From NCBI GenBank assembly GCA_948607205.1, contig CAPERS010000002.1:68767-132766 (forward strand): a DNA stretch of 64,000 nucleotides, written 5' to 3'. A program made the translations under genes and the position numbers. The notes beneath the pieces are model-generated. The model saw only the letters and a program-made list of their open reading frames with translations, searched no databases and was not told the origin of the DNA. Below, piece by piece: positions 7,577-58,525 of this stretch. Every line of letters starts with the position of its first letter. Within the stretch, counting starts at the first letter, position 1. This stretch comes from an uncultured Eubacteriales bacterium (GTDB lineage: Bacteria > Bacillota > Clostridia > Christensenellales > UBA1242).

Positions 7577-10500
7577 CTAAACAAGTTCAAACCCAGCAAG
7601 ACCAACTTCAAATACGTCGTTCTGCTGTGGCAAATTTTGTGCAAATTCAAACAATGTTACTTGCATTGGAAGGCCGTTATTCATCTCTTTTTCATATCTG
7701 AAACCTTCATTAAAATCAGTTTCACTACCGTAGGCTTTTTGAGAAATGGTGTTTGCAAGACTCAAAGAAAGATAGCTTGCCACAATTGTTGGCTGTGAGC
7801 CAAGTCCATAAATTGAGTTGAAAGTTGTAGGCAAAATGTTAACTCGTGCAACAGATGAGCAATATTCCACAAGCATTCTAGTGCCAACATTGTTTCTGCC
7901 AACAATTCCACCATAATGAACATTGCTTGTGCTAAGATTTACAATACTATAATCTGCACTTGAAATGATTGAAAGATTGTCAGTCACCTCCCCAACAATT
8001 CCTCCAATTGATTGACTTGCGATTGTTGATTCCAAATTTCCATAATTAATGCAATTTTCAATAGTTCCTTTGCTAGTTGCGCCAGCAATTCCGCCTATTT
8101 GGCTATTTTCTTGCACTCCAATATCTTTGATTGTTCCATAATTTATACAACCAATAATTTTATCATTCTTTTCTTCGCCAAAAAACACGCCACAAATTCC
8201 ACCCTTGGAAGTTCGACCGCTGATTTCTGCACGATTTACACAATTTTCAATAATATTGCCTTCATATGCGTTACCAACAATTCCGCCAGCGTTCCAAACA
8301 GAATAAACATTTCCAGTAACTAAACAATTTCTTACTGTCGTATTTTTCGCAAGACCAATAATTCCACCTGCACCATTGTTTGCGTTTATTGAAACATTGA
8401 GAAGAATTACATCTTGAATTATTGCATTTGAGGTTTTACTGAATAGACCAATATAATCATAAGTAGAATCATAATTGCCTACCACAACTTTATTTAATGT
8501 TTTTAAACTTGAAATTTTTTTATTGTTTCCTTCAAACTTGCCTTTAAAATATGTATTATTTTTTCCAATTGGCATCCAATATCTGCCTGCAAGGTCAATA
8601 TTGTTTGCAAGACGGATTGTTTTGCCTTCAAAATTTTCTCCTTCCCAGTTCATATATGCCACTTTTCCAAGTTCTTCTGCGGTTGAAATGAGATATGCTC
8701 CGCTGGCGTCGGTTGTAAGTTCGACATCTTTGCCGACTGCCGACCATGTCTCTAACCATACTGCATAAAGTGTGACATTTTCTGTGCCTGTTGTTAGGTT
8801 GGATACGCTTGCTCCGTCGCTAAATGTTATTTTTGATGCATCATATTCTGAAATCGGATTTTGTTTTGTTCTGCTCCAACCTAGGAATATATATCCGTTT
8901 CTTGTGAATGAGTTTGCTGTTAAATTTTTGTTATAACCATATGTATGTTTTTGTGCAGACATTGTTCCAGTTCCACCGTTTGCGTCAAACACTATGTTGT
9001 ATTCGTTTGCATCCCAGAGCGCAACGAGTGAGGCGTCACCAACACCGGTTGTGTAAGTTGTTGCTTGACTGCCATTTTCGCTGACATTTTTTCCTGTCGC
9101 ATCATAAGTTCCAACATAGGCAACCTGCCACTTGACAGGATTTTCAGAACTTCCGCTTGGACCTTCAATATAGAAAAAGCCAATAGTGTCAAAATTTCCG
9201 TCTGAGCCACACACCCACTTAAAAACATATGTCTTCCAAGTTCCTGTTCCAATGTTATTTGAAATCCAAGTGTCATGCGTATTATTGCCATGCGCATTAT
9301 ATGCAGGCATCAATTTATATCCTTCTGGAATTTTCGCATGGATAACTGAATAGAAAACTCCGTTTGCTTTTGACTGAAAACGGTTTGAAAAACCATAACC
9401 CCAACCGCAAGTGGCAAGGTTTGTTATTTCAAGAACACGTTTTGAATCTGGCAAATTTAAATCAGAAGGTTTCGAAATTAAATTAAACACAACATTTCCA
9501 TTACCCGAATTGTCATAAATTTCTATATTGTTATCTGACCAATCAAAGAAACCGTCTGTGGTTTTGTCATGTGTTTGACCAAAGGTTGAGAAAGTTCCAT
9601 TTCCATTTTTTGCAACCCAGCCTTTGAAGGTATAACCCGGACGTGTTGGAACGCCTAGTTGAATGTTTGTTCCTTTATCTTGCGTTATTGAGGTTGCCCC
9701 CGAATAAGTTCCACCATTTGCATTCACCGTCACTTTTGACTGAGAAACGAAATACAGATTTACAGTAACACTTTGTGCTGGCACATTAAATTTAATACTG
9801 TCTTGATTTGAATTGCTATTTTCTGATGTTGTGACAGAATAATGCGAATATCGAACACTGCTTGAATATCTAATATTCCACACATCGATAGTTTCACCAT
9901 ATCCCACTTGCTGATAAAAATCAGCTACGTTACTTTTATCAGTCGAAGAGCCAATATTGACATTAAATTGTAGTCCTGAAAGAGAATTATCAGATTGATT
10001 GACTCCGTCAACATAATGATTTACATCAACATAATAGTTGTTTCTTGTCCAACGTGCTGTGATGGTTTCATTGCTTGCTGAGGTTTTATATGTTGAACTA
10101 TAAATTCTAGTTCCACTTGAATTATACCAGCCAGCAAATGTGTAACCTTCTCTTGTTGGTGTTGGGCAATCGTAGTAATTTCCATAAGTCGTGCTATATG
10201 TTGACGAACTACTGCTCCCAATTTTTCCGCCATTGGCATCATATGTCACATTAAATTTTCTTGGCGCAAGAATAATGACATTATAATAGTTTTTTGTTTC
10301 GTTTCCACTAAACTTCAATGTGTGGGTCATGTTCTTTGCAGCCGATTGTGATGAATCTGTTTTCCAAAAACTTGAAACTTGACTTGCAGTAACATTCCCA
10401 ATATCAGTTGACGTTAAAGGATTAATTAAACAATATGAAAGATATGCTTCAAAACCAGCATTTTTACTTGAAATTGAATAATTTACATCATAGTAAGAAT

Positions 10501-10909
10501 GTTTATCGCCACCAATAAAAGTCAATTTCATGTAAACATTACCTTTTATCCAATTTGTTCCATTCCCAGATGCTGACGTTCCCGTGCAACCACCAGCACC
10601 AGTGAAATTGGTAAATGTTATGCTCGTGTTTGCAAGGCTTGTTGAGGTATAGCCATCTTCGCTTACATATTTGCCAATGTTATAATCAACATTTTTAAGT
10701 TGAAAGGTGTCCGTAGATTTTACTACTGGACTTTTCAAACAAACCAATGCAAGACTATAATTATACGTCACATTAGAATAAGCGTCTGCTGTTTGGTCTT
10801 TGTTTGAATTATTTTTTATTGAATCAGAAAAAGTAAAAAACATGCCTGCTGAAAAGCATACCGCAAAGACAAAAGAAACTGTTAACAAAATCTTATGAAT
10901 TCTTTTCAT
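7577..10909 (-). CDS. Large membrane-anchored surface protein with Listeria-Bacteroides (Flg_new-type) repeats and a GLUG-like repeat array
   Basis: 1110 aa. N-terminal signal/anchor helix. Three DANGG...GYTF(A/K)GW or GYIFLGW repeats. C-terminal third has repeated GGI(I/V/A/C)G ... NC(I/V)N units. Paralogue of 54887-58300. Confidence 0.8.
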   Translation of the reverse strand: MKRIHKILLTVSFVFAVCFSAGMFFTFSDSIKNNSNKDQTADAYSNVTYNYSLALVCLKSPVVKSTDTFQLKNVDYNIGKYVSEDGYTSTSLANTSITFTNFTGAGGCTGTSASGNGTNWIKGNVYMKLTFIGGDKHSYYDVNYSISSKNAGFEAYLSYCLINPLTSTDIGNVTASQVSSFWKTDSSQSAAKNMTHTLKFSGNETKNYYNVIILAPRKFNVTYDANGGKIGSSSSSTYSTTYGNYYDCPTPTREGYTFAGWYNSSGTRIYSSTYKTSASNETITARWTRNNYYVDVNHYVDGVNQSDNSLSGLQFNVNIGSSTDKSNVADFYQQVGYGETIDVWNIRYSSSVRYSHYSVTTSENSNSNQDSIKFNVPAQSVTVNLYFVSQSKVTVNANGGTYSGATSITQDKGTNIQLGVPTRPGYTFKGWVAKNGNGTFSTFGQTHDKTTDGFFDWSDNNIEIYDNSGNGNVVFNLISKPSDLNLPDSKRVLEITNLATCGWGYGFSNRFQSKANGVFYSVIHAKIPEGYKLMPAYNAHGNNTHDTWISNNIGTGTWKTYVFKWVCGSDGNFDTIGFFYIEGPSGSSENPVKWQVAYVGTYDATGKNVSENGSQATTYTTGVGDASLVALWDANEYNIVFDANGGTGTMSAQKHTYGYNKNLTANSFTRNGYIFLGWSRTKQNPISEYDASKITFSDGASVSNLTTGTENVTLYAVWLETWSAVGKDVELTTDASGAYLISTAEELGKVAYMNWEGENFEGKTIRLANNIDLAGRYWMPIGKNNTYFKGKFEGNNKKISSLKTLNKVVVGNYDSTYDYIGLFSKTSNAIIQDVILLNVSINANNGAGGIIGLAKNTTVRNCLVTGNVYSVWNAGGIVGNAYEGNIIENCVNRAEISGRTSKGGICGVFFGEEKNDKIIGCINYGTIKDIGVQENSQIGGIAGATSKGTIENCINYGNLESTIASQSIGGIVGEVTDNLSIISSADYSIVNLSTSNVHYGGIVGRNNVGTRMLVEYCSSVARVNILPTTFNSIYGLGSQPTIVASYLSLSLANTISQKAYGSETDFNEGFRYEKEMNNGLPMQVTLFEFAQNLPQQNDVFEVGLAGFELV

Positions 10910-10941
10910 ACTTTATCCTTTTTATATATTTTATTTAAATA

Positions 10942-10973
10942 ATTATACCTCAAAATCCCCCCCCCCATGTCAA
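10942..10973 (-). promoter_or_regulatory. Sigma-A-type promoter with a G10 tract in the spacer (TTGACA-N20-TATAAT)
   Basis: Minus strand reads TTGACA T G10 ATTTTGAGG TATAAT. -35 at 10968-10973, -10 at 10942-10947, homopolymer at 10957-10966. The -10 box lies 32 nt upstream of the ATG. Confidence 0.6.
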
Positions 10974-11164
10974 CAAAATCCGACAGAAAACTCACGCCAT
11001 TTTTGCGTTTCCATTTGGAAAGCGTGGCTATGCTGAGAGTTATTTTTAAATATATATTATTATACTCAAAAATTGAGTAAATACAAAATAAAAAATAAGG
11101 AAAACACATATTTTTCCTGTGTTTTCCTTAAATTAAAGAGATAAAATTCAAATTATATTTTTAT

Positions 11165-28753: not shown

Positions 28754-30067
28754 CTAGAAGAGTCCGCGAAGACCTCTGCCATTCTTCATTTGTTTCATCA
28801 TATCTTTGGTCTGCTCAAACTGTTTGAGAAGTTGATTGACCTGCTGAACGCTCGTTCCACTGCCGTTTGCAATGCGTTGACGACGACTTGCTTTGATGAT
28901 TTCTGGGCTACGTCTTTCTTGTGGCGTCATTGACTGAATAATTGCCTTGTTCACCGCAAGTTGATTTTCGTCAATAGTAAGATTTTTAATCTTGCCGGAC
29001 ATTCCCGGAATCATGCCTAAGATATCCTTAATCGAACCCATTTTTTTGAGACTTTCAACCTGAGTGAGATAGTCGTCAAAGGTGAAAGAATTTTCTCTAA
29101 ACTTTTTCTCGATCGCCTTCGCTTCTTCTTCACTGACAGCCTCTTGCGCCTTTTCGATAAGCGACAGCACATCGCCCATTCCTAAAATACGGCTTGCAAT
29201 GCGGTCTGGATAGAAAGGCTCTAAGTCACCAATCTTTTCGCCCACACCGGTGAACTTGATTGGTTTGCCAGTGATTGCTTTGATTGAGAGTGCCGAACCA
29301 CCACGAGTGTCACCATCAAGTTTTGTGAGCACAACGCCAGTGATGTCGAGGTCACGATTGAAACTTTCAGCAACAGTGACAGCGTCCTGACCTGTCATAG
29401 AGTCAACAACAAGCAAGATTTCAGTTGGCTTAACTTCACGCTTGATATCTTGAAGTTCCATCATAAGTTCTTCGTTAATGTGAAGTCTGCCTGCTGTATC
29501 GATGATAACAGTGTCAAGCCCTTGCTTTTTGGCATGGTCGATTGCCTGCTTTGCTGTTTTGACAGGATTTTGAGTTCCTCTTTCAAAAACTTCAACACCT
29601 GCTTGCTTGCCCACAACTTGAAGTTGGTTGATTGCCGCTGGCCTATAAATATCACAGGCAACAAGAAGTGGACGCTTGCCAGATTTCTTCAAGTGCGCGC
29701 CAAGTTTGGCACACATTGTGGTTTTTCCTGCACCTTGAAGACCGCACATCATAATGATTGTCGGTGGTGCTGATGAAATCGTCAATTTTTGATTTTGCGA
29801 AGACATAAGTTCTGTCAGTTCATCGCGCACGATTTTAATAACCTGTTGTGCTGGCGTTAAACTTTTCAAAACTTCATCGCCGACAGCCTTTTCTGAAACT
29901 TTTTTGACAAAGTCTTTTGCGACCATATAATTTACGTCGGCTTCAAGCAGAGCAATTCGGACTTCGCGCATTGCCTCTTTGATTTCAAGTTCGGTCAGTC
30001 TTCCACGCTTTGTAAGTTTTGAAAAGATGTGATTGAACTTATCAGATAATGATGAAAAAAGTGCCAC
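28754..30067 (-). CDS. ffh: Signal recognition particle protein Ffh
   Basis: 437 aa. GLQGAGKTT and DTAGR motifs, Met-rich M domain. TAG stop. Confidence 0.95.
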   Translation of the reverse strand: MALFSSLSDKFNHIFSKLTKRGRLTELEIKEAMREVRIALLEADVNYMVAKDFVKKVSEKAVGDEVLKSLTPAQQVIKIVRDELTELMSSQNQKLTISSAPPTIIMMCGLQGAGKTTMCAKLGAHLKKSGKRPLLVACDIYRPAAINQLQVVGKQAGVEVFERGTQNPVKTAKQAIDHAKKQGLDTVIIDTAGRLHINEELMMELQDIKREVKPTEILLVVDSMTGQDAVTVAESFNRDLDITGVVLTKLDGDTRGGSALSIKAITGKPIKFTGVGEKIGDLEPFYPDRIASRILGMGDVLSLIEKAQEAVSEEEAKAIEKKFRENSFTFDDYLTQVESLKKMGSIKDILGMIPGMSGKIKNLTIDENQLAVNKAIIQSMTPQERRSPEIIKASRRQRIANGSGTSVQQVNQLLKQFEQTKDMMKQMKNGRGLRGLF

Positions 30068-45008: not shown

Positions 45009-45082
45009 AGGGGTGTAGTTCATCGGTAGAATGAGAGTCTCCAAAACTCCAGAGGAGGGTTCGATTCCTTCCACCCCTGCCA
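45009..45082 (+). tRNA. tRNA-Trp (anticodon CCA), CCA encoded
   Basis: AGGGGTG/CACCCCT acceptor stem, anticodon loop CTCCAAA, GAGGG-TTCGATT-CCTTC T-arm. 74 nt. Confidence 0.95.
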
Positions 45083-45169
45083 AAACGCGACCAAACGAAA
45101 TGCTTCACTAAGCATTTTGTCGCAACTATAAAATGGAATTAAAAAATCACCGATTTCTATCGGTGTTTT

Positions 45170-45607
45170 TTATTCTTCCCCTGTCACCATATAATCGAGC
45201 GAAACATCAAAATATTTTGCTAATTTAATTAAACTTGATAAAACTGGTATTTTGCCCTTTTCCCAATCTCTTTTTGTATTTATATCCATATCTAAAATTT
45301 CGCACAACTTATAATGCGAACAATCAATCGATTTTCTCAATTTCTCATATCTTTTATCAAAATTTGGTTTAAATTTTATTTCTTTATTATAATTATTTTT
45401 ATCAGAAAGAGCCAATAAAAAATCAAGAGAACATTTGAAATAATTTGCAAGAATTATTGCACCCTCTAAATTCGGATTAAATTTCCCTTTTGTATAATTA
45501 TCTAATCTTTTATATGACATTCCTAGTTGCCTAGCAATTTCACTTTTGCTAAGCTTTTTGTCAGATATTAAATCGTTTAAAATGTCTTTAAATTCGTAAT
45601 CTTGCAT
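45170..45607 (-). CDS. XRE-family regulator with two HTH domains
   Basis: Start at ATG 45607 (GAGGAAAA RBS). Two Cro/C1-type HTH units (LSKSEIARQLGMSYKRLDNY.. and ..HYKLCEILDMDINTKRDWEKG). Paralogue of 46298-46738. Confidence 0.75.
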   Translation of the reverse strand: MQDYEFKDILNDLISDKKLSKSEIARQLGMSYKRLDNYTKGKFNPNLEGAIILANYFKCSLDFLLALSDKNNYNKEIKFKPNFDKRYEKLRKSIDCSHYKLCEILDMDINTKRDWEKGKIPVLSSLIKLAKYFDVSLDYMVTGEE

Positions 45608-45713
45608 TTTTCCTCGCATTTTTACAAATTTTAACAAATTTAGTCCGATTTTATTTGGTTTTGAAACTGAACTTGAGTATAATTAGTATAAGGGAAATTT
45701 TCGGAGGTTAAAA

Positions 45714-46301
45714 ATGGAAGTAATAATAGCGAATATTGACGCAAGATATACATTGTTTGAATATTTTTTTAAAAGTTTTAAAATGCATTTAACTAATCAT
45801 ATAGATCTTCTTGACGATAACATTTATCTTTATTTAGATAGTGAAAGAAAAATTACTATAAGAATTATACAAAATGGTTATGAAGAAAATGATTATCATA
45901 TTTCAGAGGATTTAAAATTAAAAATCAAAGAATTGCACATTCATGAACTGCGCAAATTTGCAAAAAAATGTGGGGTCAAATCACCTACCTCACAAAATAA
46001 AAAATCTTTAATTGATAAATTATCAAAATTACACGTTACAGATGTTCCAACTTATAATCAGGAACAAAAAGTAATAGAAACACAAGATTGGCATTTGTTC
46101 AAACATTACTTTACTAATATTTTTAGTCCTATTTCGGAGGACACATTAGTTTATATAAATTTAAAGAATATTAAAGATTTTGTGATTTACTTTGAAAATT
46201 TGCTTTCTCATATCGATGAAAAATTTGTTATGCTGAATTTCAATCAATATCAAATAACGCTTCAAGGCGAAATTCTAAAAATTAATTTATGCATAACTTA
46301 G
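45714..46301 (+). CDS. 195-aa hypothetical protein with an HeH/Rho-N-like motif
   Basis: GGAGG RBS. The central LKIKELHIHELRKFAKKCGVKSPTSQNKKSLIDKLSKL resembles a SAP/Rho_N helix-extension-helix. Confidence 0.5.
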   Translation: MEVIIANIDARYTLFEYFFKSFKMHLTNHIDLLDDNIYLYLDSERKITIRIIQNGYEENDYHISEDLKLKIKELHIHELRKFAKKCGVKSPTSQNKKSLIDKLSKLHVTDVPTYNQEQKVIETQDWHLFKHYFTNIFSPISEDTLVYINLKNIKDFVIYFENLLSHIDEKFVMLNFNQYQITLQGEILKINLCIT

Positions 46302-46738
46302 TTATCTATATCAAACAAAAGACTTTCAACTGACACACAAAAAAAATCTGCTATTTTAATTATCGTTGCAAGTTTTGGAATTCTACCATTCTCCCAATCT
46401 TTTTTAACATCCAAGTCTAACGGAATTAATTTTGATGCTTTATAATGAGAAAGTTTATTATTATTTAAAAGTTCAATATATCTTTGATAAAATTTGCCAT
46501 CATACACAATTTCATGCTTATAATTATTTTTCTTTGACAAGCCAAATAAATAACTTAAAGTCATCTGTAACGCATTCGCAATTTTTATAGCATTATCTAG
46601 TTCTGGTTGGCAATAACCTTTAAGATAATTATCAAGTCCTTTTTCTGAAATATTTAACATTTGAGCAAATTCAGTCTTTTTTAAATCTTTTTCAATCATG
46701 TAATCTTCTAAAATCTCTTTAATCGCTCCACTGTTCAT
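46298..46738 (-). CDS. XRE-family regulator with two HTH domains (paralogue)
   Basis: Start at ATG 46738 (GAGAGGTG RBS). Same architecture and C-terminal ...KIADFFCVSVESLLF as 45170-45607. Its 3' end overlaps 45714-46301 by 4 nt. Confidence 0.75.
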   Translation of the reverse strand: MNSGAIKEILEDYMIEKDLKKTEFAQMLNISEKGLDNYLKGYCQPELDNAIKIANALQMTLSYLFGLSKKNNYKHEIVYDGKFYQRYIELLNNNKLSHYKASKLIPLDLDVKKDWENGRIPKLATIIKIADFFCVSVESLLFDIDN

Positions 46739-46828
46739 AATTACACCTCTCACTTTATAAAAAGTTTAAGGGATTATTCACAAATTTGAACATTTTGAAA
46801 CTCAACCCGACTAGTTTATTTTTGCATA

Positions 46829-46857
46829 TTGACAAGTGGTAAATTTGGTGATAAAAT
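46829..46857 (+). promoter_or_regulatory. Putative promoter TTGACA-N17-TAAAAT with TG extension
   Basis: -35 at 46829-34, TGA-TAAAAT at 46849-57. Lies 24 nt upstream of ATG 46881. Confidence 0.5.
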
Positions 46858-46880
46858 GTTAACAAAAAGAGGAAGAAAAG

Positions 46881-47765
46881 ATGAAAGACAATCTGTTTAT
46901 TAAAATATTGAATGAATGGGAAAATTGTGACGAACTTGAAAGATTTAAACTTCTTCAAGAGTTTGAGAATGAAAATGCGGAACGACAAAATCGAAATGCA
47001 CGAACTCTTATGATTGATGAAAGTGCCAAGCCTTACAGTGAAAACAATGAGGCAGCTGCATACTACTGCTTGCAATATCCAGAATATATTTTCATTTGTT
47101 CACCTGCCAAAACAACAGCGTTTATTTCAATGTTAGACTTGACACATGAAGGCTTGCACGCTTATATTGACGATTATTTGAATGACAAAACAAACTTAAG
47201 AACGCTTTCAAAGATTGACATTGAGAACATAACAAAAGAAAATGAATATCTTAAAATCATCAACAAATATTTAGAAAAGATAAACTCTCTTAAAATATAT
47301 GAAACAATGTCTTTTGAAGAAATTTTTGTTTATAATGAAACTACTTTAATTATGCTTAGTCACATATTTAATTCATGTGAGAGCATTATGGACACTAGCA
47401 AATTGTTCAAATATGTTCAGGATACTTTAAAAATTTTGATTAACCAAAATAATGAAATCGAAGATTTGAAAGCGCAAGGACTGGACTATCAACTTTTTTA
47501 TGAAAATGTGATAAATTATGATAAAAGCCTGACTGAAAAATTTAAAAAAGAAATCAAAACAACAAAAATAGTTGAAGATGAGAAAGACATTCTGCTTGTG
47601 AAAATTTTAAATAAACTTTATGGCGAATATAAATCCTATCTAAACTGCAGTAAAAAAGAAAAAGAAGTTAAAAAAGACCAATTTATTGACCTGTATCTTA
47701 ATTTAGCATATCTTTATAGTGACGAAAAAGGCTCTCCACTTCTATGTGGCGAAGATATGGAATAA
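46881..47765 (+). CDS. 294-aa hypothetical protein containing an HEGLH (HExxH) motif
   Basis: GAGGAAG RBS. MLDLTHEGLHAYIDDY is a possible zinc-metallopeptidase motif; the remainder is predicted helical. Confidence 0.5.
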   Translation: MKDNLFIKILNEWENCDELERFKLLQEFENENAERQNRNARTLMIDESAKPYSENNEAAAYYCLQYPEYIFICSPAKTTAFISMLDLTHEGLHAYIDDYLNDKTNLRTLSKIDIENITKENEYLKIINKYLEKINSLKIYETMSFEEIFVYNETTLIMLSHIFNSCESIMDTSKLFKYVQDTLKILINQNNEIEDLKAQGLDYQLFYENVINYDKSLTEKFKKEIKTTKIVEDEKDILLVKILNKLYGEYKSYLNCSKKEKEVKKDQFIDLYLNLAYLYSDEKGSPLLCGEDME

Positions 47766-47895
47766 TAAAAGATATTAACAAAAATTGTTCATTAATTTAC
47801 ACAAAAAAAAGACGCCAATCATTTGGCGTTTTTTTAACAAACATAACATAAACAGTGACTGTGTGAGAGATATAAAAAAACGGCATAATGCCGTG

Positions 47896-48243
47896 TTAAA
47901 AGCCTAGAGAAATTAAAATTGCGCGGTTGACCTCTTTCATTTTAAGGTCGTCAAGAGTTGTCACTTTTTCACGCAGACGACGTTTGTCGAGCGTGCGGAT
48001 TTGTTCAAGAAGAGCAACTGAGTTTTTGGGCAGGTTATATTTTTCTGCCGAAAGGTCAATGTGCGTTGGAAGTTTTGCTTTGCCAAGCTGGCTTGTGATG
48101 GCTGAAACGATAACAGTTGGCGAATATTTGTTGCCGACATCGTTTTGGATTATTAGGACTGGACGAACGCCACCCTGTTCACTTCCAACAACAGGGCTTA
48201 GGTCAGCATAATAGATTTCACCTCTTTTTATTTGCTCGTCCAT
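47896..48243 (-). CDS. mazF: MazF/EndoA-type mRNA interferase toxin
   Basis: [48 protein letters not shown] is near-canonical EndoA/PemK. Start taken at ATG 48243. Confidence 0.9.
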
Positions 48244-48460
48244 ACTTCCTTTCAAATTCCATTAGGTCTTCAAGTTCAGCGCGTTCCATTTCTTCAATCT
48301 CGCTGTAAACTGAAAGAATATCACGCGCATTTCCCTCTACTTGCATATTATGCCAAGCACTTTGAAAAGTTGACATGGTGCTTTGGCGCAAAATGTCATT
48401 TTGTGCAGTTTCATTCTGCTTTGCAAGTTTTTCGAGTTCTTTTTTTAGTTGACTTTTCAT
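48218..48460 (-). CDS. Putative cognate antitoxin (no RHH/AbrB signature), 80 aa
   Basis: ATG 48460 behind GGGAGA. The stop overlaps the mazF start by about 26 nt. Acidic C-terminal helix [20 protein letters not shown]. Confidence 0.5.
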
Positions 48461-48569
48461 GATTATCTCCCTGATAAAAATTTTTAAACTTGAATTATTG
48501 TGAGAAAATTGGGAAAAAATATGTAAAATCAAGCAAAAACACATAAAATTAACTTTTTTTAATTTTTAC

Positions 48570-48597
48570 TTGACAAATCCCCCCCCCGATTTATAAT
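48570..48597 (+). promoter_or_regulatory. Promoter TTGACA-N16-TATAAT with a C9 tract in the spacer
   Basis: -35 at 48570-75, C9 at 48579-87, -10 at 48592-97. AAGGAG RBS and ATG 48629 follow. Confidence 0.6.
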
Positions 48598-48628
48598 AGG
48601 GTAACTACAAAAAAAAGGAGAAATATAT

Positions 48629-49723
48629 ATGACAGAGGAAGAAATTAAGGAATTAATCGCCCAACATTATAAAGAAAAAAGTGAATCACGTGTAGCCGAA
48701 GAAATTCCTGCAGAAATATCAGAAAAAATTGCAATAGGTAATACACTTATTTATCCAGAAAGACAACGAGAATGGGAAAAGTATGTTAAAGCAAATAATG
48801 GTAGCGAACTTGATGTTGCTATTCCTGTTATGGAAGCTCTTGAAAATGGTGCCTCTTTTGAAGAAGCCAGCAAAATTATGGAAAATACAAACTCAATAGA
48901 ATCATTTGCTATGGCAATGAGTATTATCGCTAAATTCTCTAAAAAAGGTGTTGAGTTTTTTAGATATGTATCAAAAGATAAAGCACTTGACCCAGAAAAC
49001 GAAAAATTCTTACAAAAAATTTCTCAAGAAAATGAACACATGATAATGAGTAATGCTGAATGTATAAATGATACTGGCTATCTGCTTGCTGGACTTGACC
49101 TTGACAGAATCACTCAACTTCTTGAAGATTTAAAAAATGAGAATAAAAATGTTTATATTAATGGTTACGGAACAAAACTTTACTCTATGCTTGACAATCG
49201 CGATTCATGTTATAAAAAAGTTACAGGTAAAACTTATGAAGAGTTTAAAAATCAAAATTTAGAAAATTCGACGCCAAATAGCATATATGAAAATAAATTG
49301 GGAATAATCAAAAATAATCAAAAATATATGGAAGGTGCTATTGAAAGTATCTACAAAAAAAGCTTGAACTTAATCTATCCACAAAGAAAAGATGAATGGG
49401 AAAAGAAATGTGAAGAAAGTTTTAAATCCCCTACTATTGGTAAAGATTTTAGTATGGCTGTTGCAATAATGGAAGGTATTGAAAGAAATGAACCATTCGA
49501 AGACCTTTATGGTTATCATGTTGAAGAAAAAGAATATTATTTTAACAAGGCATTAAATTTAATAAAAAACTTTGCAAAAAAGGGTGTGGAGTTTTATAAA
49601 TATGCTCAAGCACAAAAAAATAAACAAATTGACGAAGAGGAATTAAAAAGAATTTCACAAGAAAATGAACAGTTCGAAAAACAACTTCGTCTTAATGGTG
49701 AGAAAGACGCGAATATGGAATAA
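48629..49723 (+). CDS. 364-aa cytoplasmic protein made of two homologous halves, function unknown
   Basis: Repeat 1 IYPERQREWEKY...AKFSKKGVEFFRY...LQKISQENEHM and repeat 2 IYPQRKDEWEKK...KNFAKKGVEFYKY...LKRISQENEQF. No signal peptide. Confidence 0.6.
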   Translation: MTEEEIKELIAQHYKEKSESRVAEEIPAEISEKIAIGNTLIYPERQREWEKYVKANNGSELDVAIPVMEALENGASFEEASKIMENTNSIESFAMAMSIIAKFSKKGVEFFRYVSKDKALDPENEKFLQKISQENEHMIMSNAECINDTGYLLAGLDLDRITQLLEDLKNENKNVYINGYGTKLYSMLDNRDSCYKKVTGKTYEEFKNQNLENSTPNSIYENKLGIIKNNQKYMEGAIESIYKKSLNLIYPQRKDEWEKKCEESFKSPTIGKDFSMAVAIMEGIERNEPFEDLYGYHVEEKEYYFNKALNLIKNFAKKGVEFYKYAQAQKNKQIDEEELKRISQENEQFEKQLRLNGEKDANME

Positions 49724-49762
49724 AAAACATTTCACTTCTCGTTATTCATGTAAACACAAAAA

Positions 49763-49787
49763 ACGTGCAAAATTTGCACGTTTTTTT
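49763..49787. terminator. Bidirectional intrinsic terminator
   Basis: ACGTGCAA..TTGCACGT hairpin flanked by A6 and T7 runs, between convergent genes. Confidence 0.65.
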
Positions 49788-49804
49788 GTATCACAGTATT
49801 TACA

Positions 49805-54886: not shown

Positions 54887-57800
54887 TTAAATTATCTCAA
54901 ACCCAGCAAGACCAACCGAAAGCACATCGCTCTGCTGTGGGATTTGACTCGCGTATTCAAACAAACCAACCTGCATTGGAAGACCGTTATTCATCTCTTT
55001 TTCATATCTAAAACCTTCGTTGAAATCTTCGGCATTTCCATAAGCACGCTTTCTCTCTTGATTGCCAACTATCATGCTATAGTAACTTGCCTTGATAAAC
55101 GGAGTTTTACTTCCTCCAAAAATAGCGCCCGAACTGTTTGAAATTTCACCTGTTGACGAGCAATATTCAAGTTCACATTCTGCCCAAATGACACCGACAA
55201 TTCCACTCAGATTTAAACATTCATTATCAACATGGGTGACAAATCCATAGTTTGCCGACGAAATTATTCTTGTTGAGCCATCATTGCAAAGCGCAACGAT
55301 TCCGCCCATTCCACCAACAGTCACTGTTGTTTGAATATTTCCATAATTTATGCAATTTTCAATGTTGTTTCCTGCACTTATTCCAACAATTCCTCCAAAC
55401 CAATAATCATTCCTTCCAAAGTCATTATTTTGAGAAAGAAGTCCAAAATTTATGCAGTTTTTTATTGTGCTATCACTTGCCAAAGCGACAATTCCACCTT
55501 GATACCCGCCAACTATTTCTGCTCTATTCACGCAGTTTTCAACAAGTGAATTTCCAGTTATATGGTCAACAATGCCTGCCGAATGTCTATTAGACTTGAT
55601 TTTTCCTGACAAAACTTGACAATTTCTTATCTGTGATGAGTTGCAAAGTGATGCAATTCCTGCACCTCGGTCACTTGTGTCAATTGATACATTGCTCAAA
55701 ATAACATTCTCAATCTTCGCATTTTCTATTGTGCCAAAAAGTGCTCCCCAAACCGCATATCGCCCAAAGTTTTGTGTTGTAAGGCCATTAATTTTTTTAT
55801 CACATCCATCGAAAGTTCCACTGAATTTTCCGGTTTCGCTAATTGGCATCCAATATTTGCCAGCAAGGTCAATATTGTTTGTCAATTTAACTGTTTCACC
55901 ACTGAAATCATGGCCCTCAAGAGCCATATATGATAACTTTCCAAGTTCTTCTGCACTCGAAATGAGATATGCACCGCTGGCGTCTTGTTTTAAAGTCACA
56001 CTTGCACCAGCTGACGCCCAAGTTTCAAGCCATACTGCATAAAGTGTGACATTTTCTGTGCTTGTTGTTAAATTTGAAACACTTGCTCCGTCGGTATATG
56101 TTATTTTTGACGTGTCATATTCTGAAATTGGATTTTGTTTTGTTCTGCTCCAACCTAGGAATATATATCCGTTTCTTGTGAATGAGTTTGCTGTTAAATT
56201 TTTGTTATAACCATATGTATGTTTTTGTGATGGCATTGTTCCGCTTCCGCCATTGGCGTCAAACACAACGTTATATTCATTCGCATCCCAAAGGGCGACA
56301 AGTTCAACATCAAGATAGCCAAAAGTGTAAGTTGTTTGACCAATTCCACTACCGCTGACATCAAGACCTGTAGCGTCGAAAGTGCCAAGATATGCAACCT
56401 GCCAAACGAGAGGTTTTTCTGCTGTTGGCGCTGGTCCAGTTGAAAGATTAAAGAAACCTATTGTTGAAAAACTGCCAGTTGAACCGCAAACCCATTTATA
56501 TATGTAAGTTTTCCAAGTCCCAGTTCCTTTGTTGTCAGTAAGCCAACTATCATTACATTCATTTCCATGCGCATTCGCTTGGGCGTGAATTGTGTAACCT
56601 TCGGGAATTTTCGCGTGAATAATCTAATAATAAACTCCATTTGGCTTTGAATCAAAACAGTTATGAAATCCGCCATAGCCCGGGCTTGCCTCCCCCACTG
56701 TTGAAATTTCAAGCACTTTCTTAGAGCGTGGCAATTTGAGGTCATCAGGTTTATCAACAATGTTTAGCCTAACATTTCCGTTGTTTGAATTGTTATATAC
56801 ATCTGTGATGTTATATGAATTATCATAAAAGCCGTCAGTCATGACGTAATGGAATTTTCCAAAACTATCCAAACTGCCATCACCATGACTTGAGACCCAG
56901 CCTTTAAAGGTATAACCTGGACGCGTTGGCATAGTATATATTTTTTGTGTTGAGCCATAAATGTGACCAGAAGAAGTTTCAGTTTCCATTCCGTTAACCG
57001 CCCCACCATTTGCGTAACAAGTTATAGAGGCAAACTTTTCAGTCGTGAGATATGGATAGCCTTCGTTGATTTCTGACTTTTGTGAAAAATATGAGTTCCA
57101 CTTAGAGTCTGACTTCCAAGAATATGAAGTTCCGTTCACAACAAACGAACTTCCTGTAAAACAATCCCAATTCCTGAATGCATCAACAATGCCAGAAATA
57201 AAATGGTTGGTTTCACCCAAGCATTCATTGCTATCAATTTTATCGAAGCCCAAGCCTCTATCTGAATAGTTGTAACTATAAGCACTATAATCTGCGTTTT
57301 TATTAATAACATTCGCAACAATTGCTCCAGTGCTTACTGCTGAACTAGAGTTATTTCCAACATTAAAATTGTTTGACACAATCTGTAAATTGCTAACAGA
57401 GCCAAATACACCACCAAGATGAAACAATCTTCCACCAGTAAAATTACCAGCATTATAATTATGATTAAAACTTGTAAGATATGATGGTTCTGATGACGAA
57501 CTGCCTACAACACCCCCAATAATCACCATGTTAAATTCTTCATAATTGAAATTTATATCTCCAAAATTATAACAATATGTAACAAGCATCGTTATCATAG
57601 GTATGATAGGCGAAGGACCACTATAGCCATTTTCACAAGACATAGTTCCTACAATTCCGCCAACCGCAGCAAAAACAGACTGAACTTCTATATCAACAAA
57701 ATTGGCACATCCAGTTATCATGGAATTGATTGCATAACCACAAATTGCTCCTCCAAATTGAGAAGTTGCGCCATCAATAACATTAACATTAATTTTTCCT

Positions 57801-58300
57801 GTTCGTATAACAATTCCGCGAAGGGTTGCGCTGGTTACATAGCCAAACAATCCACAATATGAAATATTTTCTACTACTGGAGCTGAAGTGACTTGATGAT
57901 TTATATAAAGACCTAAAATCGAATAACCATTCCCATTAAATAAACCCTGAAATGAAGAATCTTTAGTTCCAATTGAATCCCAATAATAATTCCCCAAGTC
58001 GATATTTTTGGTTTGTTCAAAATACTTTCCACTTGACCAACCATCAGTTTTTGTTTGCTCTCTCACCCACACAAGATTTTCTGCGCTTGCTATCTTATAA
58101 GGCTCACCACTTGTTCCGTCACCTGTTGGCTTGACCGCGCTTGAACTTGGCCAAAGAGAATTGTTTTTTGGAGTTTCAATTGAAACACCATATGTAACAT
58201 TTTGGTTTATTTCAGAATTAGATGAAATATAAAAAGTAACGCCAAACGCCAGCGAACAAATGCTTATTAAACAAAAAATTGAAGATATTATCTTTTTCAC
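54887..58300 (-). pseudogene. Paralogous surface-protein gene (1137 codons) interrupted by one in-frame TAG at 56624-56626
   Basis: ORFs 56624-58300 and 54887-56266 share one frame, and I found no other stop between them. Translation across the gap (..NGVYY*IIHAKIPEGY..) aligns with ..NGVFYSVIHAKIPEGY.. of 7577-10909. GTG start behind AAGGAG. Confidence 0.75.
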
Positions 58301-58323
58301 GACAAAATTCTCCTTTTTATTTT

Positions 58324-58354
58324 ATTATACCTCAAAATCCCCCCCCCTAGTCAA
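58324..58354 (-). promoter_or_regulatory. Sigma-A-type promoter with a G9 tract in the spacer (TTGACT-N19-TATAAT)
   Basis: Minus strand reads TTGACT A G9 ATTTTGAGG TATAAT. -35 at 58349-54, -10 at 58324-29, tract at 58339-47. Confidence 0.6.
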
Positions 58355-58525
58355 CTAAATCCGACAGGAAAGATACGCTATTTTTGCGTTTCCGTTTAGA
58401 AAGAAGGGCTATGAAGGTTAATTTGGTTTTATATCAATTATTATACTCAAAAATTGCGTTTATACCAAACGAAAAATGCAAATAAAATGGTTTGAAATTT
58501 ATAGTCAGTGTGATATAATAAAAAC

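What the first reader, a model, noticed from the sequence alone, without database searches (positions are those of the whole stretch)
48570..48597. C9 tract in an otherwise perfect TTGACA-N16-TATAAT promoter driving a cytoplasmic repeat protein next to mazEF
The sequence is TTGACA-AAT-CCCCCCCCC-GATT-TATAAT, followed by AAGGAG and ATG 48629. One extra C would give the optimal 17-nt spacer; losing one or two would weaken the promoter.

Unlike the other two tracts, this one controls a protein with no signal peptide or TM segment. That suggests the switching network also reaches an intracellular function (regulator, immunity or defence?) and not only surface antigens. The gene is divergent from the mazE-like/mazF pair.
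Basis: partly seen in the sequence, partly recalled or inferred. Interest (0 to 1): 0.75.

Follow-up and report, generated by a model that had tools for sequence, protein, structure and literature searches.

The report
Slippage-prone C9 promoter, orphan cytoplasmic gene
A run of nine C's sits inside an otherwise perfect promoter of an uncultured gut Clostridia bacterium, and it probably lets the population vary how strongly it expresses a fast-evolving intracellular protein of unknown function, which is a known kind of switch in a new host and on an unusual target.

Summary
TTGACA (48570-75), a 16-nt spacer (AAT-C9-GATT) and TATAAT (48592-97) are followed by AAGGAG and ATG 48629, which opens a 364-aa ORF.

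**The tract is not chance.** The 64-kb window has only three C/G runs of 6 or more. All three are 9-10 long and all lie in promoter spacers (0.02 runs of C9 or longer expected).

**Length varies, but rarely.**
- Across 17 assemblies of this species the tract is C9 in 16 and C10 (17-nt spacer) in one.
- The C10 contig is otherwise identical over 2.5 kb.
- The two control tracts vary in the same way (C9/C10/C11).

**A sister species keeps the arrangement.** It has the same promoter and C9 at the same mazEF-acpS junction, with one extra A giving a 17-nt spacer. Its gene product is only about 45% identical, while the neighbouring proteins are 84-97% identical. More distant relatives lack the gene.

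**The protein is uncharacterised.** It is soluble, with architecture A-B-A, and belongs to a family of 356 clusters at 50% identity. It has no Pfam, PDB, PADLOC or NCBIfam match. Members occur on large plasmids and in phage contigs.

**Verdict:** a new member of a known kind, an opc/porA-type slipped-strand promoter. It probably works as a rheostat biased to ON. Switching, its effect on expression and the protein's function are all untested.

The parts
48570..48575 (+). -35 hexamer TTGACA
   Evidence: 12 of 12 consensus match. Conserved in the sister species L194.
48576..48591 (+). 16-nt spacer AAT-C9-GATT
   Evidence: Other perfect promoters in the window have spacers of 16-18 nt.
48579..48587 (+). 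Poly-C tract, 9 C (G9 on the template strand). This is the slippage-prone element that sets the spacer length.
   Evidence: 0.019 expected by chance. C9 in 16 assemblies and C10 in L184. L184 against L181: 2479 nt, 0 mismatches, 1 gap. C9 is also present in sister species L194.
48592..48597 (+). -10 hexamer TATAAT
48615..48620 (+). Ribosome-binding site AAGGAG, 8 nt before the ATG. It overlaps the end of an A8 run (48609-48616), which is eight A's in 16 of the 17 assemblies; in L090 one A is replaced by G. No length change was seen.
48629..49723 (+). ORF of 364 aa, acidic and soluble. Architecture: A1 (aa 37-140, nt 48737-49048), B (aa 141-240, nt 49049-49348), A2 (aa 241-364, nt 49349-49720). 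It belongs to an uncharacterised family whose typical member is a B-A protein of about 220 aa.
   Evidence: (AlphaFold2 of aa 141-364, pLDDT 88.5).
49754..49791 (.). Palindromic, bidirectional terminator-like hairpin between the ORF and the convergent acpS gene
   Evidence: minimum free energy -15.8 kcal/mol, z-score -4.1. A counterpart is present in L007 and L194.
48518..49757 (+). Block of about 1.24 kb (upstream AT-rich DNA, promoter and gene). It is present only in this species and one sister species, and absent between mazE and acpS in other relatives.
47896..48460 (-). Divergent neighbour operon: an 80-aa ORF in the antitoxin position (48218-48460) plus mazF/PemK. Its promoter region (48461-48517) is conserved in species that lack the inserted gene.
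   Evidence: (PemK E 6.9e-36).

Best explanation
This is a housekeeping-sigma-factor (sigma-70-type) promoter whose -35/-10 spacing is set by a slippage-prone C9 run. It drives an accessory, cytoplasmic, fast-diverging protein.

**Proposed mechanism**
- Replication slippage adds or removes a C.
- C9 gives a 16-nt spacer, which should be active but sub-optimal.
- C10 gives the optimal 17 nt. C11 gives 18 nt, which is weaker.
- C8 or fewer gives 15 nt or less, which should be nearly off.
- Every large population therefore carries cells with graded expression. This is a rheostat of the opc/porA type, not a clean ON/OFF switch. In the gut, selection keeps the consensus at C9.

**The gene and its promoter**
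- They are confined to a narrow clade of two sister species, where they sit between mazE and acpS.
- The promoter with its tract has been kept while the coding region diverged or was replaced.

**The protein**
- Its function is unknown.
- My best guess, and it is only an inference, is a role in conflict with phages or other mobile elements.

**What is shown:** the anatomy, the non-random placement of the tracts, the length polymorphism, the conservation across species, and the protein family with its predicted fold.

**What is inferred:** the switching rate, the effect on transcription, any adaptive value, and the protein's function.
For: 1. Perfect promoter with the tract in the spacer.
2. 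All three C/G runs of 6 or more in 64 kb are 9-10 long and lie between promoter-like hexamers. Only 0.02 are expected.
3. Near-identical genomes differ essentially only at these tracts:
 - L184 against L181: 0 mismatches and 1 gap in 2479 nt (C10 against C9, this tract).
 - L097 against the window: 0 mismatches and 1 gap in 2494 nt.
 - L179 against L173: 1 mismatch, plus C11 against C9.
 - L099 against the window: 1 mismatch and 1 gap in 6618 nt.
4. The neighbouring A8 run shows no length change in any of the 17 assemblies.
5. Sister species L194 has TTGACA-AATA-C9-GATT-TATAAT (17-nt spacer) at the same locus. Its MazF, AcpS, RecX and MazE are 96, 97, 91 and 84% identical to the window's, but the driven protein is 45% identical and has one repeat fewer.
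6. Relatives carry G/C runs inside promoter spacers too: L017 (G8, spacer N16), L024 (C9, N16) and L067 (G12, N20).
7. Established knowledge: poly-C length in the meningococcal opc promoter tunes transcription. Tracts there shifted from 11C to 12C or 14C in 5 of 17 clones (PMC6389960, citing Sarkari 1994).
8. Family members lie on large plasmids and in faecal phage contigs, and one BFVD phage protein matches the model.
Against: - Sixteen of 17 assemblies, and the sister species as well, have exactly nine C's. The tract is therefore rather stable at consensus level.
- The 17 assemblies represent only about three haplotypes, and several come from the same studies.
- The single C10 comes from one Logan contig (reported in 2 samples), and I could not check its sequencing platform.
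- There are no read-level, transcript or reporter data.
- A 16-nt spacer may already be fully adequate, in which case C9/C10 variation could be nearly neutral.
- The protein has no assignable function, so no selective reason for variable expression can be given.
Confidence: 0.6

Rival explanations
1. This is a fixed constitutive promoter. The C9 run is an inherited quirk of the spacer with no exploited variability. The rare C10 allele is a neutral or slightly deleterious indel, or an assembly error.
For: - C9 in 16 of 17 assemblies and in the sister species.
- A 16-nt spacer is also used by another perfect promoter in front of a gene.
- The whole core promoter is conserved, not just the tract, so conservation may simply reflect promoter function.
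Against: - A 9-nt G/C run is intrinsically a slippage hotspot (established knowledge).
- The only three long C/G runs in 64 kb all fall in promoter spacers.
- The other two tracts vary between genomes that are otherwise identical.
- Any spacer sequence would serve a fixed promoter, yet the tract persists in a 36% GC genome.
Confidence: 0.27
2. The tract is a protein-binding or structural element and not a slippage device. It could be an operator for the MazE-like/MazF pair or for one of the nearby HTH regulators, or an element that couples the two divergent promoters.
For: - It lies in the 168-nt divergent intergenic region next to an autoregulated type of operon.
- Its length is conserved at exactly 9 in two species.
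Against: - There is no palindrome or repeat around it.
- The mazE promoter region (48461-48517) is conserved in species that lack the tract and the gene.
- The other two tracts sit in unrelated cassettes, far from any toxin-antitoxin locus.
- No regulator known to me recognises a plain C9 (my own knowledge).
Confidence: 0.06
3. The tract is a sequencing or assembly artefact.
For: Some contigs end near the tracts. L001 starts 12 nt before this one, and L096 starts 1 nt before the control tract.
Against: The same tract is present in the window and in 16 other assemblies from ENA, JGI, NCBI and Logan, and in a second species.
Confidence: 0.01

Closest known systems
Neisseria meningitidis opc (poly-C) and porA (poly-G) promoters
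   Same: - A homopolymeric G/C tract lies between the -35 and -10 hexamers.
- Tract length sets the spacer and so grades transcription, instead of giving a strict ON/OFF switch.
- Length changes arise by slipped-strand mispairing (PMC6389960, citing Sarkari 1994; the porA details are from my own knowledge).
   Different: - The host here is an uncultured Gram-positive-type gut Clostridia bacterium (Christensenellales-like).
- The target is a soluble cytoplasmic protein, not an outer-membrane antigen.
- The consensus length is nearly fixed across assemblies.
- Switching and its effect on expression have not been demonstrated.
Mycoplasma hyorhinis vlp promoters (poly-A in the spacer) and Bordetella pertussis fim promoters (poly-C)
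   Same: A homopolymer inside the promoter controls transcription by changing spacing. In the mycoplasmas several paralogous promoters are involved (my own knowledge; reviewed in PMC10502178).
   Different: - Those promoters control surface lipoproteins or fimbriae.
- In Bordetella an activator (BvgA) is also involved.
- Here there is no paralogous cassette: one search shows no homology to the other two tracts in the window.
Bifidobacterium breve pilus G-tract switch (PMC9187656)
   Same: A gut commensal uses replication slippage at a G/C homopolymer to create expression heterogeneity, with apparent selection in vivo.
   Different: According to that abstract it is an ON/OFF slippage switch controlling surface pili. 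As far as I know the tract is inside a gene and acts by frameshift, which I did not check in the paper. Here the tract is in a promoter spacer and the target is cytoplasmic.
Tad3 (Pfam PF25185), a phage inhibitor of the Thoeris protein ThsB
   Same: - A short motif of domain A (...Q-x-HSG-x-S...FSK-x-G) matches Pfam positions 33-55 of 119. In multi-repeat family members the summed score passes the Pfam cut-off (P0019, 68.7 bits).
- Family members occur in phage contigs and on plasmids.
   Different: - The window protein gives no Tad3 hit even at E = 10.
- Only 3 of 49 typical members give weak hits.
- Only about one fifth of the Tad3 profile is covered.
- Foldseek against the PDB finds nothing.
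- The HSG motif is degenerate in both A domains of the window protein.

Membership tests
Homopolymer-in-promoter-spacer contingency locus (opc/porA type) | G/C homopolymer of about 8 nt or more, located between recognisable -35 and -10 hexamers | tested here: met
   C9 inside TTGACA-N16-TATAAT.
Homopolymer-in-promoter-spacer contingency locus (opc/porA type) | Tracts over-represented and non-randomly placed in the genome | tested here: met
   three runs of 9 or more against 0.02 expected, all in promoter spacers and none in coding DNA. Relatives show the same placement.
Homopolymer-in-promoter-spacer contingency locus (opc/porA type) | Tract length differs between otherwise near-identical genomes | tested here: met
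   One of 17 assemblies is C10, and it differs from L181 by nothing else in 2479 nt. This is weak, as it rests on a single variant. The control tracts vary in 2 of 11 and 1 of 2 assemblies.
Homopolymer-in-promoter-spacer contingency locus (opc/porA type) | High-frequency, reversible length change within a clonal population (read-level or colony-level heterogeneity) | not testable with these tools
   No reads or isolates are available. Contig breaks near the tracts are uninformative.
Homopolymer-in-promoter-spacer contingency locus (opc/porA type) | Tract length changes the transcription of the downstream gene | not testable with these tools
   This is inferred only from the 17 +/- 1 spacer rule and from natural spacers of 16-18 nt in this genome.
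Tad3 anti-Thoeris family (PF25185) | Match to the Pfam model at or above the gathering score | tested here: not met
   no hit for the window protein at E up to 10; only partial motif hits in relatives.
Tad3 anti-Thoeris family (PF25185) | Structural similarity to a solved or predicted Tad3 | tested here: inconclusive
   Foldseek against the PDB gave no match with E below 2, and sequence searches of the PDB found no Tad3 chain. A Tad3 structure may simply not be in the library. BFVD returned only one uncharacterised phage protein.
Component of the adjacent mazEF toxin-antitoxin module | Conserved co-occurrence and co-orientation with mazEF | tested here: not met
   The gene is divergent from mazEF. 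About 20 related species have mazEF next to acpS without it. Family members elsewhere sit in unrelated contexts.
Uncharacterised 'B-A' protein family (about 220-aa members; no Pfam entry) | Significant full-length sequence similarity, including the conserved IYPxR...EW...FSKxG(P/V)EF motifs | tested here: met
   (356 representatives with E up to 1e-3, 97 with E up to 1e-10). The alignment has invariant W and G residues. The window protein has two A units and one B unit.

The most novel reading that the evidence does not exclude
The mazEF-acpS junction of this Christensenellales-like lineage may carry a conserved, hypermutable promoter 'socket', behind which the coding sequence turns over quickly. 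The driven protein is 45% identical between the two species, against 84-97% for its neighbours, and it has gained a repeat unit.

On this reading the locus provides stochastic, heritable dosing of a cytoplasmic conflict protein. That protein could be an immunity, defence or anti-defence factor from a large uncharacterised family carried on plasmids and phages. The locus would then be one intracellular arm of a lineage-wide set of poly-G/C promoter switches that otherwise control surface proteins.
Probability: 0.2. Interest if true: 0.7.

Novelty: new member of a known kind. Interest (0 to 1): 0.45.

Why it matters
**Where the field stands.** Work on phase variation in gut commensals has centred on invertible promoters. 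In the library I searched, no paper describes simple-repeat promoter switches in Christensenellales.

**What this locus adds.**
- This locus, its two sister tracts and similar tracts in related metagenome-assembled genomes suggest that slipped-strand promoter control is used by an abundant but uncultured group of gut Clostridia.
- Public metagenome assemblies already show tract-length change as almost the only difference between otherwise identical strains.

**Why the target is interesting.** It is cytoplasmic, fast-diverging and belongs to a sizeable family with no annotation. It would therefore be a reasonable entry point for assigning that family a function.

**Limits.** The mechanism itself is textbook, and nothing functional has been shown here.

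Tried and rejected
**Searches that found nothing useful**
- Protein-guided scans for the gene in GTDB representative genomes, JGI metagenome contigs and IMG/VR found nothing.
- A degenerate DNA pattern covering both tract types returned 73 metagenome loci, none from this organism.
- The promoter pattern is absent from viral contigs.
- The window protein has no hit in Pfam, PHROGs, PADLOC, NCBIfam or PDB sequences. A profile search of the PDB also found nothing, as did tblastn of the window protein against phages and plasmids.
- Foldseek of a confident model (pLDDT 88.5) found nothing in the PDB, and only one uncharacterised phage protein in BFVD.

**Ideas considered and dropped**
- *Tad3 relationship.* The hit is a motif of about 23 residues that only sums to significance in proteins with 3-6 repeats. 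It is absent from the window protein.
- *Part of mazEF.* Rejected on synteny.
- *A copy of the cassette that carries the other two tracts.* Rejected, because there is no homology.
- *Contig ends near the tracts as evidence of within-sample heterogeneity.* The break points do not fit what a C9/C10 split would produce in an assembly graph, so they are uninformative.
- *An exact MazF protein look-up.* It failed because I used the longer TTG start.

Full report
**1. Observation**

- TTGACA at 48570-48575.
- A 16-nt spacer made of AAT, nine C's (48579-48587) and GATT.
- TATAAT at 48592-48597.
- AAGGAG at 48615-48620.
- ATG at 48629, opening a 364-codon ORF that ends at 49723.

The consensus scanner scores the promoter 12 of 12.

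The tract is far from a chance feature. In this 35.9% GC window 0.019 C-runs of 9 or more are expected, yet there are three (10957-10966 C10, 48579-48587 C9, 58339-58347 C9). There is no other C or G run of 6 or more.

Perfect TTGACA-N15-19-TATAAT sites occur 6 times against 0.07 expected, with spacers of 16, 16, 17, 17, 16 (this one) and 18. This organism therefore uses the canonical sigma-70-type consensus. Another perfect 16-nt-spacer promoter sits in front of a small gene with a good ribosome-binding site.

**2. Organism and locus**

TyrS and the local gene order place the window in uncultured gut Clostridia, variously labelled Christensenella, Christensenellales or Clostridia bacterium in the assembled genomes. 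The named relatives 'Candidatus Onthoplasma' are Christensenellales.

The gene lies between a divergent toxin-antitoxin-like pair and a convergent acpS-recX block:
- The pair is an 80-aa ORF in the antitoxin position with no family match, plus a PemK toxin (E 6.9e-36).
- A palindromic terminator-like hairpin at 49754-49791 separates the gene from acpS.

In about 20 related species the mazF-mazE pair abuts acpS directly, and tblastn finds no homologue of the gene there. Roughly 48518-49757 (promoter plus gene) is therefore an accessory block. The mazE promoter region (48461-48517) is conserved in those species, so mazEF does not depend on the tract.

The stretch between tRNA-Trp (45009-45082) and mazF is also variable between strains.

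**3. Tract length in other genomes**

Exact-protein look-ups recovered the locus from 16 further assemblies (ENA, JGI, NCBI, Logan). Fifteen have C9. One, L184 (DRR865662, a contig reported in two samples), has C10, which is the predicted optimal 17-nt spacer. L184 differs from L181 by that single C and nothing else over 2479 nt.

The two other tracts serve as internal controls:
- 58339 is C9 in nine assemblies, C10 in L097 and C11 in L179.
- 10957 is C10 in the window and C9 in L099.
- In each case the tract is nearly the only difference. L097 against the window shows 0 mismatches and 1 gap in 2494 nt. L099 against the window shows 1 mismatch and 1 gap in 6618 nt. L179 against L173 shows 1 mismatch plus the tract.

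The A8 run 20 nt downstream of the C9 tract shows no length change in any assembly, although L090 has a G substitution in it.

Caveats:
- The 17 assemblies fall into only about three haplotypes, and several come from the same studies.
- Consensus assemblies report only the majority allele.
- I could not verify the sequencing platform of the C10 sample.

Overall, the tract is demonstrably mutable, but its consensus is strongly held at C9.

**4. Sister species**

The closest non-self homologue, P0002 (220 aa), is encoded on L194 at the same place: mazF-mazE-[gene]-acpS-recX. Its promoter reads TTGACA-AATA-CCCCCCCCC-GATT-TATAAT. That is the same hexamers and the same nine C's, with one extra A giving a 17-nt spacer.

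Between the two species MazF, AcpS, RecX and MazE are 96, 97, 91 and 84% identical. The tract-driven protein is only 45% identical over 187 aligned residues and has one A unit fewer. At the DNA level only two short pieces of the gene align.

So the promoter and tract are conserved while the coding region has diverged or been replaced. Other family members examined have ordinary promoters without any tract (L002, L193, L195).

**5. The protein**

- It has no signal peptide or hydrophobic segment (maximum 19-residue Kyte-Doolittle mean 0.86) and is acidic.
- It has an A-B-A architecture, and A2 aligns to A1 at 36% identity.
- The word-indexed search found only four relatives. The exhaustive HMMER search found 356 cluster representatives at 50% identity (97 with E of 1e-10 or lower). 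These are typically B-A proteins of about 220 aa, with multi-repeat forms up to 892 aa.
- There is no hit in Pfam, PHROGs, PADLOC, NCBIfam or PDB sequences.
- An AlphaFold2 model of residues 141-364 is confident (pLDDT 88.5). It shows a small alpha/beta B domain, a long helix and a helical A domain.
- Foldseek finds nothing in the PDB (best E 2.3) and one uncharacterised Caudovirales protein in BFVD (E 1.9e-4).
- A canonical member (P0026) has tblastn matches in two faecal phage contigs and on six large plasmids, of Lysinibacillus sphaericus (pBsph and two related plasmids), Clostridium perfringens pJFP838A and Paenibacillus polymyxa. In the two plasmid regions examined (pBsph and pJFP838A) the matches lie among arrays of small hypothetical genes. 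Other members are chromosomal.
- Multi-repeat members give a summed Pfam hit to Tad3, a phage protein that binds and inhibits the Thoeris protein ThsB (PMC13402655). However, the match covers only about 23 of 119 profile positions, is seen in 3 of 49 typical members, and is absent from the window protein, whose HSG motif is degenerate. I treat this as a lead, not a classification.

**6. Mechanism proposed**

*Shown:*
- A consensus promoter whose spacer length is set by a C9 run.
- The run is one of only three in 64 kb, and all three are in promoter spacers.
- Length changes at these runs are the main differences between near-identical genomes.
- A natural C10 allele exists.
- The promoter and tract are conserved in a second species.

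*Inferred from established promoter rules and the opc/porA precedent (PMC6389960, citing Sarkari 1994):*
- C9 (16 nt) is active but sub-optimal, and C10 (17 nt) is maximal.
- C11 is weaker, and C8 or fewer is nearly off.
- Slippage therefore yields a graded, heritable and reversible spread of expression.

The strong predominance of C9 suggests that expression at the 16-nt level is favoured in the gut. The element would then behave as a rheostat biased to ON, not as a frequently flipped switch. By contrast, the two other tracts give 19-20-nt spacers in their common state, which would normally mean OFF.

Why a cytoplasmic protein should be dosed stochastically is unknown. Its rapid divergence and the family's presence on mobile elements make a role in conflict with phages or other mobile elements the most attractive guess.

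**7. Comparison with what is known, and novelty**

This is functionally the opc/porA, vlp or fim design. It meets the sequence-level criteria for membership. The two defining behaviours, high-frequency reversible switching and length-dependent transcription, could not be tested here.

I found no report of simple-repeat promoter switches in Christensenellales in the searchable library. Gut-commensal studies there concentrate on invertible promoters.

G/C runs inside promoter spacers recur in related assembled genomes. In L017 and L067 they precede signal-peptide or lipoprotein genes; the product downstream of the L024 tract could not be assigned. A cytoplasmic target is therefore the unusual aspect of this locus.

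**Verdict:** a real feature and a new member of a known kind, of moderate interest.

Noticed in passing
window 10880-11110 and 58262-58492 (minus strand): The other two poly-C/G tracts sit in a paralogous promoter cassette of about 200 nt, upstream of surface-protein genes with signal peptides (7577-10909 and 56624-58300; the 1110-aa product of the first carries Flg_new domains). On the coding strand the cassettes read TTGACA-N20-TATAAT (G10) and TTGACT-N19-TATAAT (G9). These spacers are too long for an active promoter, so the common state is probably OFF. Each cassette also contains a second 'TTTTTGAGTATAAT' copy about 100 nt upstream. Tract lengths vary between strains (C9, C10, C11).
   Followed up: partly
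window 45083-47895: The stretch between tRNA-Trp and mazF holds two HTH regulators and two unknown proteins (195 and 294 aa). Its content differs between strains: L087 has genes of 286 and 84 aa, and L088 has a 295-aa gene. In several related species it is absent, and the tRNA lies next to mazF. It looks like an integration hotspot.
   Followed up: partly
window 54887-58300; L088 12544-13095; L173 1-1047: The window has ORFs of 459 aa and 558 aa here, whereas other strains of the species carry a single Flg_new gene of 1073-1149 aa downstream of the 58339 tract. The surface-protein gene behind that switch is therefore itself polymorphic or split. Part of it is 77% identical to the gene behind the 10957 tract.
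   Followed up: no
L017 54-61; L024 4988-4996; L067 5949-5960; L071 63-76 and 8503-8515; L081 20711-20719: Related assembled genomes carry G/C runs of 8-14 in intergenic DNA. Three lie exactly between promoter hexamers: L017 (TTGACA-N16-TAAAAT, G8), L024 (TTGCGT-N16-TATAAT, C9) and L067 (TTGACA-N20-TATACT, G12). The L017 and L067 tracts precede signal-peptide or lipoprotein genes. L071 has two copies of a G13/G14 cassette.
   Followed up: partly
window, whole (10957, 48579, 58339): All three tracts are poly-C on the + strand. That strand is C-rich (C 19.3% against G 16.6%) and gene-poor, so the G run is on the probable leading strand in every case, whatever the orientation of the gene. This could be chance (about 1 in 4) or a mutational or replication bias.
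   Followed up: no
L090 1-110 (ERZ14864000, coverage about 4x): This one assembly has three substitutions clustered just downstream of the tract (TATGAT instead of TATAAT, plus two more before the ribosome-binding site) while keeping C9. It is either a real promoter-down variant or low-coverage error.
   Followed up: no
window 29904-29931 (+): A perfect TTGACA-N16-TATAAT lies inside the ffh coding region, on the antisense strand. It may be an antisense promoter or a chance match.
   Followed up: no
L193 8540-8820: Upstream of family member P0004 there is what looks like a tRNA gene interrupted by an insert of about 230 nt, possibly a group I intron. A Fic-domain gene lies on the other side.
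   Followed up: no
L002 3554-4360: In the genome that carries P0003, a YezG-like gene (a family annotated as immunity proteins) is inserted within the glycolytic gene cluster (pgk, tpi, pgm, eno), 1.6 kb upstream of the family member. The family member itself follows a tRNA.
   Followed up: no
L171 (ERZ779875 contig), around 2506-2527: An unrelated metagenome contig contains TTGACAAAT-C10-TATGAT, which has the same -35 and flank as the finding's promoter. It is probably convergent or a chance match.
   Followed up: no
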